A stretch of DNA of 64,000 nt, from contig CM035846.1 of assembly GCA_020510985.1 (NCBI GenBank), positions 202,587,081-202,651,080 of the forward strand, in the 5' to 3' direction. The DNA comes from Pholidichthys leucotaenia (lineage: Eukaryota). This document shows positions 27,086 to 33,000 of the stretch, in pieces. How positions within the stretch are numbered: the stretch's first letter is position 1; each line of letters starts with the position of its first letter. The position numbers were made by a program.

Positions 27086-30000
27086 TTATCTGGCAAACTT
27101 CACTCTGGCCTTCACCCAATGTATCTGATGTGATACACCTGTGTGTGATTTTAGCCATTTTTAGTGGGAATAAATGTGGGGTGTCTTAATTTATTCCTCA
27201 CCAGAAACTGCATGTTTTTAGCCTTTTTTTTTTTTTTTTTTCTTTTTTTTCCTTTGAAAGACAAAAGTAAAATAGAAAGATGTCTTTACCTTCTTTACAT
27301 GTTTCAACTGCACTGCAGCCTTCATCAGAAGAGTCAGCTGATTGCTGCCAGGTGACATTTATCAGCTGATTTTCGTAGGCGGGGCCAGCTCAGCAGATCT
27401 GTCAGATCCGCCGAGCCGGCCCCGCCTCCCGCCGTCAGATGGTCTCTGGAGAATGTGGTCCCAGGTGTGAGAAAGCATAAAGGCCCCCTCATCTCGGTTC
27501 ATGGTGTCTTTTCCCCGCTTTCTGATCTCTATTGCCTCCTTGATCCAACGTTTGTGTCTGTTGCTCTCCGATCCAATAATTTTTGTGTTGTCCCAGTCCA
27601 TGATGTGATTATTTCTTTTGCAGTGGTCCGATATAGCTGATTTTAATGTTTCTTGTTCTGCTTTTTCTTTTTGTGATCTTGTGAGTCGTCCTTGCGTTTC
27701 CTTCTCACATTCCTTTTGGTGTTCTTTTTTTCTTGTGGTGAATAATCTTCCGGTTTCTCCAATGTAGGTTTTGTTACATGATCTGCATGATATTTCATAT
27801 AATACATTGCATTTATTGTCTTGTTCTATTCTGTCCTTGGGGTGTACTAATAACTGTCTTAATTTTTTGTGTGGTTTGACTGCTGTGTTTATTTTGTATT
27901 TTTTCATGATCCTTTGAATTGGTTCCGTGATCCCTCCTATGTATGGTGTAGTTATGGTTTCCTTGTTTTTGATTTCAGCTTTTGTTCTGTGTCTTGTGTC
28001 CTGTTTATTTTCTTTGTTTTTGACTTGCTGTTTCCCTTTGTTTATGGCCCATACTGGATATTGGCAGCGTATAAGTGCATGTTTTATGTGGTTTTCCTCT
28101 TCCTGTCTGTCTTCTTGTTCCGTGATGATGGTGGCTCGTTCATATAATGTCCTGACGACTGATAGCTTGTGTGCTGTGGGGTGTTCCGATGTCCAAAGTA
28201 GGTATTGATCTGTGTGGGTTGGTTTCCTGTAGACTGTGATTTTTATGCTGCCATCCTCGTTGTGGTGGATTTTCATGTCCAGAAAGGCTATGGTGCCATT
28301 TTCCTCCTCTTCGTGTGTGAATTTTATGTTCCCCGTACTGTCTGTACTGTTCAGATGGTCAGTGAGTTCTTGTGTATGTCCTTTCCTTATTTTTTCCAGA
28401 ATGTCATCTACGTATCTCTTCCAAAGGGTGGGTTTGCATATTGTGGGTGCTGTGTTGATGGCTTTATTTTCCAGATCCTCCATAAAAAAACTGCTCATGA
28501 TGGCTGATAGTGGGTCTCCCATTGCAAATCCTTCTTTTTGTTTGTAGATTTTTCCTCTGAAAAATCTACAAACCGGGGCCGGCTCGGCGGCCGGCTCGGC
28601 GGATCTGACAGATCTGCTGAGCTGGCCCCGCCTACGAAAATCAGCTGATAAATGTCACCTGGCAGCAATCAGCTGACTCTTCTGATGAAGGCTGCAGTGC
28701 AGTTGAAACATGTAAAGAAGGTAAAGACATCTTTCTATTTTACTTTTGTCTTTCAAAGGAAAAAAAAAAAAAAAAAAAGGATAAATAATTGAAAGAAGAC
28801 AAAATGAACCTGTTTGACGTATTGCATGTTTTTAGAATTACATTTTACAGAAAATTTTGAAAAGTCTTTTCTTCAGTTTTAATTGTTCATTTATATTACT
28901 TGAATCTCCCAGTATTGTTAAAATTGATATTAAATATCCATATGCCCAAATATGTTAAAAAAACACACAGACTTCCATAGGGTGTCCTAATTTTTTCACA
29001 TGAATGTATGCTGTATATTCCAACTTAACAGTCTTCTGTGAAGCATTTTGAATAACATTAATTTGCAGGAAAGGTGCTCTGCAAAGTTTGATTTATTGAT
29101 ACTATATGTCAGGGTGGGTTGGGGACCATGCTCCCTCCTTCAGTTTTTTTTTCCATTCTGTGTTTCTCCTGCCTCAGTTCAGTTGTTTTTTGTTTTTTTT
29201 GTTTTTTAAATTTTCTGTTTTTATTCATTATCAGTCATGATATGTTCTTTATTCTGGTCTGGGGTTTGAGTTTAATGTTTTTGATTCTGTTTATTTTCAT
29301 TTGTCATAGTTGTGTATTCCCTGATCCTGTGTTTATGTTTTGGTTTGCCTTTTGTCTCTGCCCTCATGTTCCCGTGTGTGTAGCCTCTCCCTGCTGTCTC
29401 TGATTCCCCGATTGCTCCCATCTGTCTCATGTTGTCTTGATTGCTCCGCTGTCCCCATATACACCAGAGTTCAGTCCATGTCAGTTGTGGTGTCCTTGTT
29501 TGCTCTTTCCTGTTGGCGTGTTGCCCACGCTTCTGTCCAGCCTGTTTCTGTCGTGTGTACATTATCCTGCCAGTTAGTAGTTTGCCTTTGTTAAGCCCAC
29601 GTGCTGCTTTACTTTCTGTTTGCCTCCGCCAGGCCGAAGGCCAGGAGGAGGTTATGTTTTTGCCAGCATTTGTCTGTTTGTCTGTTTGTCTGTTGGTTAG
29701 CAAGATAACTCAAAAAGTTTTGGACGGATTTCGATGAATCTTTCAGGCCTTGTTGGAAATGGTACAAGGAAGAACTGATTAAATTTTGGGGATGATCCGG
29801 ATCACTGTCTGGATACAGGAATTTTTTAAATAATTCTTTAACATTGTGAGATACGGCCATTTTCAACATGTGTGCAGGGGCAATAGAGGGCGCTGGTCGT
29901 CGTGTCTGATGAACACAAACTCCGCCTTCTTCAAAGTTTTAGGCACAAAAGCACGCGGAAAACAGTGGTGGGCAGGGCCCGCCAGAGTGCCTGTGTTTGC

Positions 30001-33000
30001 GCTACGCTGCAAAAGCTGAGACGGGCAGCTGTCCGGCGCCGGATTATTTGGCAGAAATTCCCCGGCCAGCCATAGGGGCTGTGCAAAAACCAGCTCTCTG
30101 CCGGGGAAGTTTCCAAATCCTCTTTTTTCCGCGAAGCGCAAACCCAATAAAACCCATGGCAACCATTATCGCACCTTCTTTTGTCCTGCGGCTCCGGAAC
30201 AGGGAGGAATCCCGGCGCCAGTAATGCTGCGCCTGATATGTGTGACTCTAATGCTAAAAGTGACTGCATCAGGGATTTTCGACCTGAAGTCGCACTTTGC
30301 TACACAGGGCCACAAAAACTGTGTAGCCAAATTCGATCGATGGATGAACATTTTCAGCCAGTGACAGAACCGACGCCTTCCAAATCCAATGCATCACAAG
30401 CAGAAGTGATGTTTTGTCATTTTGTGGCAGAGTACAATCTACCCCCATTGGTGGCAGATCACTTCAGTGATTTGGTGCCAACATTGTTTCCTGACAGCAA
30501 GAGCACTCAATTTTTTTGTGCTACTTGGCTTATTATTTTAACAGATGGACACAACACCAACACTTCAGTTTATTACCTCCGCCAAGGAGGTAATGCTTTT
30601 ACTACTGAACCACTAATCCTATCATTGTCAATCCAATTGCTAGTCATATGTTTTCATGCTCAAGGAATCTGAAAACGTACACACAAACACTGTGGGGGGG
30701 GGAACTGTGGCGCTTGGCGGAGGTCTGCGCTCTCCGAGTGCTTTTCTAGTTTGGTTATGTTTTTGCCAGTGTTTGTCTGTTTGTCTGTTTGTTTGTCTGT
30801 TGGTTAGCAAGATAACTCAAAAAGTTTTGGACGGATTTCGATGAAACTTTCAGGCGTTGTTGGAAATGGAAGAACTGATGAAATTTGGGGGATGATCCGG
30901 ATCACCGTCTGGATACAGGAATTTTTTAAAGGATTCTTTAACATTGTGAGATACAGACATTTTCAACATGTGCGCAGGCGCAATGGAGGGCCCTGGTCGT
31001 CGTGTCTGACGAACACAAACTCCGCGTTCTTCAACGTTTTAGGCACAAAAGCACGCGGAAAACAGTGGTGGGCAGTGAAGAAATACACTCCTCGATGTCA
31101 ATTTATGTTTTAATGACAAAGATGAAGGAGCCCTGCAGGGATACAAATATACAAATATAAAATGACCGCGGCAACTAAATGTGGAGATATGTAATAAAGA
31201 AACCAACATAACTGAATATAACTAACAGAATAAGTAATGAAGCAGAGAAACTTACAGTAACAAAGTCGGTAACCTGATGCAGAGGTTGTGTCATGAACAA
31301 TGGGGAAGCATGAGACAGAACAACAAACAAAATGGATGACTATCCCCTGTTGTTCCATAATATATTCCTTTGCGGCCCCTAGTGGCCGGAGGTAAACTCT
31401 ACACCCCCCCCCCCCCAGTCCGGAAACCAACAAACTGGAAGAGGTAGACGGACTCAATCCTATACCCAATGGCCCGTCTCAGGTTCATAGCACTTGGGCG
31501 GCCTCCTCGGGCGGCACAGCTGACGGGGTCGGGGCGATGCTGACGGTGGCCGTGACGCAGGAGATGGAACGGTCGGGGTTGAGACCGTCGGGGCAGGCGC
31601 CACTTGGGTGTCGGTTGCAGGGGCAGCCTCATCGCAGGGTTCCGGCACAGATGTGTCCCGAGCCGAGTTAGGGTGCTCGTCCGCTGACAGCTGAGAGCCC
31701 GGGCGGATATGTGGATACTCTCCCGCCAGGGCATAGGGTGTCGGCAATGGGGCAGCCGGTTGCACATGGGAATGGGGGGTCGCTGGTGTGAAGGCACGAA
31801 GGAACCGCCGGTTGCGTAAAGTGAGACGTCCCAATCCGTCAACCTTGACGCGATACTGATCATGACCCAGAGACTCCACCACCACTCCTGATCTGTCCCA
31901 CTTGTTAGGGCTCGGACCCAACTGATTCTGGAGGAACACCGACTTGCCAAGTGCCAGTGGTCGGAGTGGTCTCGAGTGTGTCCGTAGGGACTCAGTCGTA
32001 CGGGACAGGCGGGTCCGGAGGGCACCCTCCTTTGCCATCCATGCCTGGCGCCAGAGTGGTCGGACATACGGGTTAGAGAACTTCTCCAACCGGTTGACAA
32101 AGGGGAAGGAATCGCGAAGGGGGCGACCAAAAATGATTTGCGCCGGGGAGAGGTGGCAGTCAGGGTCGGGCGTGTTGCGCAATTGCAATATAGCACGCAG
32201 AAAGCGGTCGTGATCGAGGCTGCCTGCCGGGCCAGTATTGGACATCAAAAGACGCTTAGCAGTCTTCACAGCAACCTCCGCTCTCCCATTCGACTGTGGA
32301 AAACCAACTGAAGAGACACGATGCCTGACATGCCATAAGCGCAGGAAGTTCTCTGTGTGGCCTGCCATAAACTCTGGACCACCGTCGCTGGAAAGTTCCT
32401 CAGGAACGCCAAAGGTAGCGAAGAAGGAGCAGAGGTGGCGAACTAAGCCTGCCGAGCCTCCCAGGTCTGTGCCAGCTGAAGAGCTAAGATCTTCCACCCA
32501 GCCTGACAGTCGATCGCCAACAACCAAGTAGTGGCAGCCCCCATAGTCAAAAAAGTCAGCGAACACCGCCTCAAAAGGTGTGGATGGAGGTGGGGATGGC
32601 AGGGGGGGCGTAGCCGCCTGCGAAGGGGCATTCCGATTGCAGTCAGCACATCCATATCTGGTGGCCTGAATGTCTTTGGACATTCCAGGCCAATAGACTA
32701 TAGCACGGGCACGGTTTTCCATAGCAGAAACGCCTTGGTGAGCCGCATGGAGGTGCCAAAGGATTCTGTCCCGGAGGGACGAAGGGACCACCACACGGTC
32801 ACGATACAGCAGCACACCATCCTGAGCATAGATGGCCTCACACACTGGAGATAGGTCCGCCAGGGCAGGGTCATTTGCATCGACCACACCATCGTGTTCA
32901 ATGAGGTGTAGTAGCTGGACAAAGCATGTGTCCGCAGCCGTCTCTTGTGCTAGGAGATGCCAGGAGATTGCTCCAAGTTCCTGAGCGTCATCACGGATGG

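What the first reader, a model, noticed from the sequence alone, without database searches (positions are those of the whole stretch)
29623..30749. Composite ~1.1 kb non-autonomous mobile module E carrying captured fragments of an hAT transposase and a Gypsy integrase. Helitron-like hallmarks are a hypothesis.
The same 1.1 kb module occurs three times: at 29623-30749, a tandem second copy at 30750-37003 split by the LTR element, and an inverted copy at 40154-41275. It sits in two unrelated hosts, the Z-W repeat and an L2 ORF2. Its termini are conserved (5' CCTCCGCCAGGCCGAAGG … GCTTTTCTAG 3'). The 3' end is CTAG followed by host T in both contexts. A short inverted repeat (cggag-N9-ctccg) lies ~15 nt upstream of the 3' end. 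Internally it carries non-functional pieces of two unrelated transposon proteins in opposite orientations. That pattern is typical of gene-fragment-capturing rolling-circle elements, but the 5' end is not the canonical TC.
Basis: partly seen in the sequence, partly recalled or inferred. Interest (0 to 1): 0.6.

Follow-up and report, generated by a model that had tools for sequence, protein, structure and literature searches.

The report
Composite non-autonomous Helentron-type rolling-circle transposon
The 1.1 kb repeat is a non-coding hitch-hiker transposon of the Helitron-like group 2 (Helentron/Helitron2, "HINE") kind in a fish genome, which has picked up dead pieces of two other transposons; this is an ordinary kind of junk-DNA element.

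Summary
The repeat is real. Two copies, 29620-30749 (+) and 40154-41275 (-), are 98-99% identical and lie in unrelated flanks. The "tandem second copy" is a different thing: an older relative (about 93% identical), 5'-truncated, without the hAT piece, sitting 4 nt downstream of copy 1.

A motif scan found at least 120 more elements with the same ends in metagenome contigs of unidentified animals. The family plan is TTA, then a palindromic 12-nt repeat (CCTCCGCCAAGG), a (TGTY)n microsatellite and a core. It ends with the inverse repeat (CCTTGGCGGAGG), a small hairpin (GCGCTC-N3/4-GAGTGC) and ..TTCTAG, followed by host TT.

Two empty sites show precise insertion in T-rich DNA, with no target duplication of 3 nt or more. 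This matches the published architecture of Helitron-like group 2 non-autonomous elements, not canonical Helitrons.

Module E is a chimera:
- the 5' half of one element;
- an antisense LTR-retrotransposon integrase fragment (E 9e-30);
- a hAT transposase fragment, in copies 1 and 3 only;
- a complete 177-bp mini-element that supplies the 3' end.

Origin by 3'-end bypass is inferred. No autonomous Rep/helicase partner was found. Interest is low.

The parts
29620..30749 (+). Module E copy 1: complete composite non-autonomous HLE2-type element (TTG...CTAG, 1130 bp)
   Evidence: 98-99% identical to copy 3. Removing it, together with copy 2, restores the paralogous empty site exactly.
29620..29651 (+). 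5' terminus: TTG followed by an expanded palindromic subterminal inverted repeat, CCTCCGCCAGGCCGAAGGCCAGGAGGAGG
   Evidence: The family consensus is TTA+CCTCCGCCAAGGAGG. As single-stranded DNA it folds at -11.3 kcal/mol, z = -4.0, and 0 of 200 shuffles fold as well.
29669..29694 (+). Microsatellite (TTTGTCTG)n of the left module; its length differs between copies
   Evidence: Tandem Repeats Finder. Copy 3 has 16 nt more. The family consensus has (TGTT)n at the same place. Oyster HINEs carry GTCK-type microsatellites at this position.
29695..29870 (+). Conserved family core (GTTAGCAAGATAACTCAAAAAGTT...TTCAACAT)
   Evidence: 70-78% identical to elements in L079, L065, L037, L117 and L047, and to window 468-597 and 44320-44472.
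29890..30162 (-). Captured fragment of an LTR-retrotransposon integrase, covering the region just C-terminal of the rve core; it contains stops and frameshifts
   Evidence: 57% identity over 91 aa, E 9e-30, to residues 104-193 of window ORF 63089-63997(-), which has an rve domain. At the DNA level it is 65.6% identical over 270 bp to 63420-63685.
30166..30544 (+). Block present only in copies 1 and 3. It contains a hAT transposase N-terminal fragment (30214-30519) with one frameshift
   Evidence: P0001 residues 60-152 match at 51-63% identity. P0133 (663 aa, with a Dimer_Tnp_hAT domain) matches at E 6e-8. The block is absent from copy 2.
30573..30749 (+). Mini-element B: a complete 177-bp family member with its own 5' end (TTA+CCTCCGCCAAGGAGGTAATG). 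It supplies the 3' end of the composite
   Evidence: Exact match to the 5' motif at 30576. Its 3' 41 nt are 97.6% identical to the L079 element. It is present in all three copies.
30712..30749 (+). 3' terminus: subterminal inverted repeat GCTTGGCGGAGG (30712-30723), hairpin GCGCTC-TCC-GAGTGC (30727-30741) and tail TTTTCTAG (30742-30749)
   Evidence: The same layout is seen in 117 non-redundant 3' ends.
30750..30753 (.). Four host nucleotides (TTTG) between copy 1 and copy 2
   Evidence: The empty site reads CTGTTTTG^TTAC.
30754..37003 (+). Copy 2: an older, 5'-truncated relative (GTTATG...CTAG) without the hAT block and with a longer integrase fragment. It is interrupted by an LTR retrotransposon
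31076..36518 (-). Nested Ty3/Gypsy-type LTR retrotransposon with 300-bp LTRs (99% identical), a 5-bp target duplication GGCAG and a 1630-aa pol ORF
   Evidence: repeat family D1; junctions; RT, RNase H and integrase zinc-finger domains.
40154..41275 (-). Module E copy 3: complete composite element (TTA...CTAG, 1122 bp) inside an L2-type LINE ORF2
   Evidence: Removing it restores [13 protein letters not shown] with the same residue spacing as teleost L2 homologues.
43944..43966 (+). Paralogous empty site (CTTTCTGTTTTGTTACTTATTAA) for the insertions of copies 1 and 2
   Evidence: The joined flanks match 43805-44031 at 93.8% over 227 bp; alignment.

Best explanation
Module E is a non-autonomous member of the second group of Helitron-like rolling-circle transposons (HLE2: Helentron/Helitron2), whose non-coding derivatives are called HINE or DINE-1-like elements.

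How it most likely works (inferred from the family, not shown here). It encodes nothing itself. A Rep/helicase transposase from an autonomous Helentron elsewhere in the genome would recognise its two ends. The left end is TT(A/G) plus a palindromic 12-15-nt repeat. The right end is the inverse repeat, a small hairpin and ...TTCTAG. The transposase would nick and peel off one strand, copy it, and paste it into T-rich DNA next to a TT, with no target duplication of 3 nt or more.

How the 1.1 kb form arose (inferred). It is a chimera made of four parts:
- the 5' 250 bp of an ordinary ~300-bp element;
- about 300 bp of neighbouring DNA, an antisense integrase fragment of an LTR retrotransposon;
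- a 28-35 bp linker of unknown origin;
- a complete 177-bp mini-element whose terminator now ends the unit.

The most likely origin is 3'-end bypass, also called composite transposition between two neighbouring elements. One sub-lineage later replaced 57 bp of the integrase piece with a 379-bp hAT transposase fragment. That lineage moved recently, because copies 1 and 3 are 98-99% identical.
For: Shown:
1. Two near-identical copies have identical ends in unrelated flanks.
Across 117 non-redundant 3' ends, sequence similarity stops right after CTAG. The next two bases are T in 89% and 90% of them.
3. Across 58 copies with both ends, the bases before CCTCC are T (78%), T (81%) and A (74%). Most of these copies are 295-400 bp long.
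4. The 5' 12-mer CCTCCGCCAAGG is the exact reverse complement of the subterminal 3' CCTTGGCGGAGG. That repeat is followed by 26-28 asymmetric nt holding GCGCTC-N3/4-GAGTGC and TTCTAG.
5. The 5' repeat is itself palindromic and is followed by a microsatellite.
6. There are two empty sites. Deleting 29620-30749 and 30754-37003 gives exactly the paralogous sequence at 43944-43966. Deleting 40154-41275 restores the L2 ORF2 frame and the residue spacing seen in teleost L2 homologues.
7. No target duplication of 3 nt or more is seen in 58 copies.
8. The published definitions match: HINE, HLE2, oyster Cg_HINE.
9. The literature reports Helentron proteins in many fish, and describes gene-fragment capture, end bypass and insertions directly next to one another.
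10. Chimera structure: L079 carries a 247-bp basic element of the same subfamily with no captured pieces. A second full 5' end lies at 30573-30590. The integrase fragment and the hAT fragment are both confirmed.
11. Rfam has no match, so there is no SINE-type head.
Against: - No autonomous partner was found. No Rep/helicase ORF is present among the large ORFs of the window or of the 120 loci. The transposase assignment therefore rests on end architecture alone.
- The 3' hairpin is thermodynamically weak (z -0.6 to -0.8). It was partly fixed by my search pattern, so its conservation is ascertainment-biased.
- The 3' repeat lies 26-28 nt from the end, against 38-60 nt in the mite HINEs.
- Empty sites cannot tell 'element starts with TT, no duplication' from 'a 2-bp TT duplication'. 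The literature notes the same ambiguity.
- Within a copy, the 5' and 3' repeats do not co-vary more than shuffled partners do.
- The end-bypass origin of the chimera is inferred, not shown. Filler-DNA repair or nested insertion followed by deletion could give the same structure.
Confidence: 0.78

Rival explanations
1. It is a canonical Helitron (HLE1) non-autonomous element. Such an element has 5'-TC, 3'-CTRR, a hairpin and A^T insertion, and captures gene fragments.
For: The 3' end is CTAG and is followed by T. There is no target duplication of 3 nt or more. Copy 3 can be read as an A^T insertion (TTAA^TTCT). The base before TTA is A in 52% of family copies. Captured fragments are present.
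Against: The 5' end is TT(A/G), not TC. A 12-nt inverted repeat links the two ends and the hairpin lies after the right repeat, which are the features that separate HLE2 from HLE1. Copy 1 is best read as a T^T insertion and copy 2 as G^T.
Confidence: 0.08
2. It is a cut-and-paste MITE with short terminal inverted repeats and a 2-bp (TT) or 3-bp (TTA) target-site duplication, for example ISL2EU-like or PIF/Harbinger-like, mobilised by a DDE transposase.
For: It has 12-nt inverted repeats. TT is present on both sides of most copies (27 of 58 match as a dinucleotide). The empty sites are formally compatible with a TT duplication. DINE-1-like elements were historically taken for MITEs for the same reason.
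Against: The right repeat is not terminal. It is followed by a conserved asymmetric tail of 26-28 nt in all 117 non-redundant 3' ends. TTA is not duplicated: the third base after CTAG is A in only 31% of copies, and the 3-nt match is 11 of 58. No duplication of 4 nt or more fits any offset (at most 2 of 58). The 5'-truncated copy 2 has an intact 3' end, and head-to-tail junctions CTAG|TTACCTCC occur (L117). Both are typical of one-ended rolling-circle events.
Confidence: 0.08
3. The copies arose by segmental duplication or gene conversion, not by transposition. The 'module' would then be only a chance nest of TE debris.
For: The window is dense with nested TEs. The host repeat of copy 1 is itself duplicated.
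Against: Similarity between copies 1 and 3 stops exactly at the family termini. The paralogue of the host repeat lacks the insertion precisely. Removing copy 3 restores the L2 ORF exactly.
Confidence: 0.02
4. It is a SINE or another retroposon.
For: It is a short, abundant, non-coding repeat.
Against: Rfam finds no match of any kind, so no pol III-type head. There is no A-rich or simple-repeat tail and no target duplication of 3 nt or more. It does have inverted repeats.
Confidence: 0.01

Closest known systems
HINE / DINE-1-like elements: non-autonomous Helentrons of the HLE2 group (Thomas et al. 2014, PMC4067079; oyster Cg_HINE, PMC7492417)
   Same: - A 12-nt subterminal inverted repeat lies 3 nt from the 5' end, and the 5' repeat is palindromic.
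- A short complementary repeat and a 4-nt-motif microsatellite sit in the left module.
- The 3' repeat is followed by a small palindrome 8 nt from the end.
- T's lie on both boundaries, with no target duplication of 3 nt or more.
- Insertions occur next to each other, and captured fragments are present.
   Different: - The 3' repeat is 26-28 nt from the end, not 38-60 nt.
- The 3' end is CTAG, which is Helitron-like.
- No autonomous partner is known here.
- The composite carries a second complete 5' end internally.
Canonical Helitrons (HLE1), for example bat and maize gene-fragment-carrying Helitrons
   Same: 3' CTAG, a hairpin near the 3' end, no target duplication of 3 nt or more, capture of fragments by end bypass, and 5'-truncated and adjacent insertions.
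   Different: The 5' end is TT, not TC. Short inverted repeats are present. The target is best read as T^T rather than A^T.
Proto-Helentron of Phytophthora (5' TT and 3' CTAG ends with HLE2-type protein; PMC4067079, PMC11417382)
   Same: The terminal dinucleotide and tetranucleotide are the same (5' TT ... CTAG 3'), together with inverted repeats of about 12 nt.
   Different: [quoted passage not shown] Here the stem-loop follows the right repeat, which is the canonical HLE2 layout. Proto-Helentron has been reported only from oomycetes.

Membership tests
HLE2 (Helentron/Helitron2) non-autonomous element = HINE | Short (11-16 nt) inverted repeats at or near both ends | tested here: met
   The family consensus is CCTCCGCCAAGG at the 5' end and CCTTGGCGGAGG at the 3' end, 12 of 12 complementary. 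In module E the pair is CCTCCGCCAgG and CtTGGCGGAGG.
HLE2 (Helentron/Helitron2) non-autonomous element = HINE | The 5' repeat lies 2-4 nt from the 5' terminus and is often itself palindromic, or is followed by a complementary inverted repeat | tested here: met
   Three nt (TTA or TTG) precede it. The ACCTCC-N5-GGAGGT palindrome folds with z = -2.4, and the expanded version in module E with z = -4.0.
HLE2 (Helentron/Helitron2) non-autonomous element = HINE | A stem-loop or palindrome lies after the right repeat, 8-35 nt from the 3' end | tested here: met
   GCGCTC-N3/4-GAGTGC ends 8 nt before the terminus and is the stem in the predicted fold of the family consensus. Caveats: the hairpin is weak (z -0.6 to -0.8), it was partly fixed by the search pattern, and the right repeat is 26-28 nt rather than 38-60 nt from the end.
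HLE2 (Helentron/Helitron2) non-autonomous element = HINE | A microsatellite or tandem repeats in the left or central part | tested here: met
   (TTTGTCTG)3.2 at 29669-29694, with length varying between copies. The family consensus has (TGTT)n.
HLE2 (Helentron/Helitron2) non-autonomous element = HINE | Insertion into T-rich sites between T and T, without target-site duplication | tested here: met
   Two empty sites are restored exactly. Copy 1 went in at CTGT^TTTG. Copy 3 went in at TTAAT^TCT under one of three equivalent registers. The two bases after the 3' end are T in 89-90% of copies, and no duplication of 3 nt or more is seen. A 2-bp TT duplication cannot be formally excluded.
HLE2 (Helentron/Helitron2) non-autonomous element = HINE | An autonomous partner with the same termini that encodes Rep/helicase, with or without an AP endonuclease | not testable with these tools
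   None was found in the window or in the 120 loci. No fish genome collection could be searched. The literature reports Helentron proteins in many fish.
Canonical Helitron (HLE1) | 5' terminus TC | tested here: not met
   The 5' terminus is TT(A/G).
Canonical Helitron (HLE1) | 3' terminus CTRR preceded by a hairpin | tested here: met
   CTAG in all copies, with a hairpin 8 nt upstream.
Canonical Helitron (HLE1) | No terminal inverted repeats; insertion between A and T | tested here: not met
   A 12-nt inverted repeat is present. A^T is possible only for copy 3. Copy 1 reads as T^T and copy 2 as G^T.
Cut-and-paste MITE (PIF/Harbinger, ISL2EU and similar) | Inverted repeats at the extreme ends and a fixed-length target-site duplication | tested here: not met
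   The right repeat is followed by a conserved 26-28-nt tail. TTA is not duplicated, and nothing of 4 nt or more fits (at most 2 of 58 at any offset). Only a TT dinucleotide remains ambiguous.
SINE | A pol III promoter head (tRNA, 7SL or 5S), a 3' tail and variable target duplications | tested here: not met
   No Rfam match at E <= 1. There is no tail and no duplication of 3 nt or more.

The most novel reading that the evidence does not exclude
The family may be a vertebrate and metazoan lineage of Helitron-like elements that combines proto-Helentron-type terminal nucleotides (5' TT ... CTAG 3') with the canonical HLE2 layout. Its terminal 40 nt are almost unchanged (97.6% over 41 nt) between a teleost and unidentified animals in metagenomes that share no other similarity with the window. 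That would point to horizontal spread, or to unusually strong constraint from the transposase. Module E would then be a recently active natural example of composite (end-bypass) rolling-circle transposition in a vertebrate.
Probability: 0.25. Interest if true: 0.4.

Novelty: new member of a known kind. Interest (0 to 1): 0.2.

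Why it matters
The main value is for annotation. The result explains a puzzling 'non-TC Helitron' as an HLE2/Helentron-type non-autonomous element. It gives exact ends that can be used to mask or mine the family: TTA-CCTCCGCCAAGGAGG ... CCTTGGCGGAGG-hairpin-TTCTAG. 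It also documents a clean case of stepwise fragment acquisition (integrase piece first, hAT piece later), with two copies that moved recently. It does not change what is known about rolling-circle transposons.

Tried and rejected
- Pfam on all six reading frames of the module found nothing useful.
- A protein-database search with the antisense integrase-like peptide found nothing at E <= 0.01. The fragment was identified instead by DNA and protein comparison with an integrase ORF inside the window.
- A literature search for the terminal sequence strings returned only primers and linkers.
- The supplements of the HINE paper do not contain these repeats.
- A scan of viral contigs with the 3' motif found 0 matches.
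- A search for further empty sites among the 120 loci found none.
- A test for co-variation between the 5' and 3' repeats within copies showed no signal: 3.02 mismatches for own pairs against 3.08 for shuffled partners.
- A search for a Rep/helicase ORF among large ORFs of the window and the loci found none.
- TTA as a PIF/Harbinger-type target duplication was considered and rejected.
- A recent tandem duplication of copy 1 to give copy 2 was considered and rejected. The two differ in structure, are about 7% divergent and have 4 host nucleotides between them.
- My first reading of the copy 1 empty site needed a 1-nt T-run discrepancy. It was replaced by the exact two-insertion reading.

Full report
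**1. Setting**

The window is transposon-rich teleost DNA. Its large ORFs are Ty3/Gypsy-type pol genes and LINE reverse transcriptases. The LINE ORF2 that hosts copy 3 has thousands of homologues, and every named one is from a teleost fish.

Largely yes.

- The region 29623-30749 recurs inverted at 40154-41275, matching over 706 nt at 98% and 350 nt at 99% (alignment).
- The 34-nt 3' end and a 36-nt core motif each occur exactly three times in the window, against zero expected by chance.
- The flanks of the two full copies are unrelated.

- It is only about 93% identical.
- It lacks the first ~31 nt.
- It lacks the 379-bp block 30166-30544.
- In place of that block it has 57 bp of different sequence.
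- It is split by an LTR retrotransposon at 31076-36518. That element has 300-bp LTRs that are 99% identical, a GGCAG target duplication and a 1630-aa pol ORF.

**3. The family and its ends**

I searched public metagenome contigs with a degenerate form of the 3' end, GGAGGTNTGNGCTCTNCNGAGTGCNNTTCTAG. The viral collection returned none. The window and these loci share no similarity other than this element. The loci carry animal genes, including WD40 proteins, a DMRT-type DMA motif and a MULE transposase.

In all 120 loci, similarity runs up to ...GGCCTTGGCGGAGGTATGCGCTCTACTGAGTGCC[AG]TTCTAG and then stops. The next two bases are T in 89% and 90% of 117 non-redundant ends.

Fifty-eight non-redundant copies also have a recognisable 5' end upstream. 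Most of these are 295-400 bp long. They begin TTA-CCTCCGCCAAGGAGGTTATGTTTTCATCGGCGTT(TGTT)n, and the three bases before CCTCC are T (78%), T (81%) and A (74%).

Structural features of the ends:

- The 5' 12-mer CCTCCGCCAAGG is the exact reverse complement of the subterminal 3' CCTTGGCGGAGG.
- The 3' repeat is followed by an asymmetric tail of 26-28 nt. The tail holds a 6-bp stem, GCGCTC-N3/4-GAGTGC, and ends in TTCTAG.
- The 5' repeat is itself a palindrome. As single-stranded DNA the basic form folds with z = -2.4. The expanded version in module E (CCTCCGCCAGGCCGAAGGCCAGGAGG) folds with z = -4.0.
- The 3' hairpin is weak, with z between -0.6 and -0.8.

**4. Empty sites**

*Copies 1 and 2.* I joined the left flank of copy 1 to the right flank of copy 2. 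The joined sequence matches a paralogous stretch of the window, 43805-44031, at 93.8% over 227 bp.

- The empty site reads CTTTCTGTTTTGTTACTTATTAA.
- The filled site reads CTTTCTGT[TTGCCTCC...copy 1...CTAG]TTTG[GTTATG...copy 2...CTAG]TTACTTATTAA.
- Deleting 29620-30749 and 30754-37003 restores the empty site exactly.

Copy 1 is therefore a full element, with TTG in place of TTA. It went in between two T's, 4 nt upstream of an older 5'-truncated copy. Nothing of 3 nt or more was duplicated and nothing was lost.

*Copy 3.* Deleting 40154-41275 (TTA...CTAG, 1122 nt) restores the LINE ORF2 as ...[16 protein letters not shown].... The recovered teleost homologues in which the motif could be found show the same LHWLPV-x-[FY]-R-[IV]-x-FK spacing. 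TTA is therefore part of the insert and not host sequence.

One ambiguity remains. The element begins with TT and is followed by host TT. The data therefore cannot separate 'no duplication' from 'a 2-bp TT duplication'. The HINE literature records exactly the same ambiguity.

No duplication of 3 nt or more is supported in the 58 full copies. TTA matches on both sides in 11 of 58, as expected from base frequencies. For 4 nt or more, at most 2 of 58 match at any offset.

**5. Comparison with known systems**

Published definitions:

- Thomas et al. 2014 define HINEs, the non-autonomous Helentrons. They have 12-15-nt, often palindromic, subterminal inverted repeats 2-4 nt from the 5' end. They have a 5-10-bp palindrome 8-35 bp from the 3' end. 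They often carry microsatellites, have T's on both boundaries and show no target-site modification.
- The HELIANO paper defines the HLE2 group by 12-16-nt inverted repeats at both ends plus a stem-loop after the right repeat, and by T^T insertion. HLE1 has 5'-TC, 3'-CTRR and A^T insertion.
- Oyster Cg_HINEs have a 5' subTIR, a complementary inverted repeat and a 4-nt-motif (GTCK-type) microsatellite on the left. On the right they have a 3' subTIR and a palindrome.

Module E and its family meet each of these structural points. Two differences stand out: the right repeat is closer to the end (26-28 nt), and the terminal nucleotides are 5' TT ... CTAG 3'.

The canonical Helitron definition fails on the 5' TC and on the absence of inverted repeats. 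A SINE is excluded: Rfam has no match, there is no 3' tail and there is no duplication of 3 nt or more. A cut-and-paste MITE is disfavoured by the asymmetric conserved 3' tail, the 5'-truncated copy with an intact 3' end, and head-to-tail CTAG|TTACCTCC junctions (L117).

The one defining feature I could not test is an autonomous partner with the same ends encoding Rep/helicase. None is present in the window or the loci, and no fish genome collection was available. Helentron proteins are reported from many fish.

**6. Anatomy of the composite**

Locus L079 holds a 247-bp basic element of the same subfamily. Its 3' 41 nt are 97.6% identical to module E, its 5' core is 74-75% identical, and it carries no captured pieces. 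Against that template, module E is built as follows:

| Region | Content | Evidence |
|---|---|---|
| 29620-29870 | Left end, microsatellite and core | |
| 29890-30162, antisense | 57% identical over 91 aa (E 9e-30) to residues 104-193 of window ORF 63089-63997(-), just after its rve integrase core | |
| 30166-30544 | hAT transposase fragment | |
| 30545-30572 | Linker of unknown origin | |
| 30573-30749 | Complete 177-bp mini-element with its own TTA-CCTCCGCCAAGGAGG start and the 3' terminator | |

*The integrase ORF.* It is about 30% identical to Ty3/Gypsy integrases elsewhere in the window. 'Gypsy' is therefore plausible but unproven.

*The hAT fragment.* Residues 60-152 of P0001 match 30254-30519 at 51-63% identity, with one frameshift. 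Full-length relatives of P0001 such as P0133 carry the hAT dimerisation domain.

*Copy 2.* It keeps a longer integrase piece (residues 87-193; its 'unique' 57 bp encode LKAALRASLTDANWVDR) and has no hAT piece. The integrase piece therefore came first. The hAT piece later replaced 57 bp in the lineage that gave copies 1 and 3.

**7. Mechanism**

Shown:

- The unit moved as one piece, using the left end of one element and the right end of another.
- Insertions are precise and lie next to TT.
- One older copy is 5'-truncated.

Inferred:

- Mobilisation in trans by a Helentron or Helitron2 Rep/helicase through a single-stranded, rolling-circle intermediate.
- Origin of the chimera by a missed or lost terminator (end bypass, or composite transposition between neighbouring elements). 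The literature proposes this route for Helitron and HINE capture.

Filler-DNA repair is an alternative for the hAT replacement.

**8. Verdict**

This is a real and correctly spotted mobile element. The claims about copy number and tandem arrangement need correction. The element is a new member of a known kind and is of low general interest.

Noticed in passing
window 31076-36518 (-): An apparently young Ty3/Gypsy-type LTR retrotransposon. It has 300-bp LTRs that are 99% identical, a 5-bp target duplication GGCAG, and one uninterrupted 1630-aa ORF with RT, RNase H and integrase zinc-finger domains. It is inserted in copy 2.
   Followed up: partly
window 455-640 (-) and 44265-44470 (+): Two further diverged members of the same element superfamily, each keeping only the 5' part. 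They begin TTA+AGTCCGCCAAGGGACGAGG and TTA+CCTCTGCCATGGGAGG, followed by the microsatellite and core. The second lies about 300 bp downstream of the empty-site paralogue and is cut off by a LINE.
   Followed up: partly
window 5780-6020 and 9560-9780: Satellite-like tandem units, by eye about 190 bp long, of a related family. Each unit contains the core (GTTAGCAAGAAT...AAAACTACTAGATG) and a CCTCCACCAAGG repeat. This resembles the tandem-repeat-bearing HINEs described in oyster.
   Followed up: no
Its nature was not examined.
   Followed up: no
window 27225-27421 and 28589-28785: 197-nt inverted repeats, 98% complementary, bracket a 386-aa ORF (27362-28522, minus strand) that has no Pfam match. 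This may be a TIR transposon or a hairpin-forming repeat just upstream of copy 1.
   Followed up: no
proteins P0001 and P0002 (Plakobranchus ocellatus, named 'connexin 27.5' / hypothetical): The closest database relatives of the hAT fragment are sea-slug gene models named after a fish connexin. By sequence they are N-terminal fragments of a hAT transposase, whose relatives carry Dimer_Tnp_hAT. The name therefore looks like an annotation error, or a sign of contamination or transfer.
   Followed up: partly
L079 (contig Ga0209671_1000634), about 7404-7655 in locus coordinates: A 247-bp element in an unidentified animal's DNA has a 3' end 97.6% identical (41 nt) to that of the fish module. The rest of the contig, which carries WD40-repeat genes with long exons, shares nothing with the window.
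   Followed up: partly
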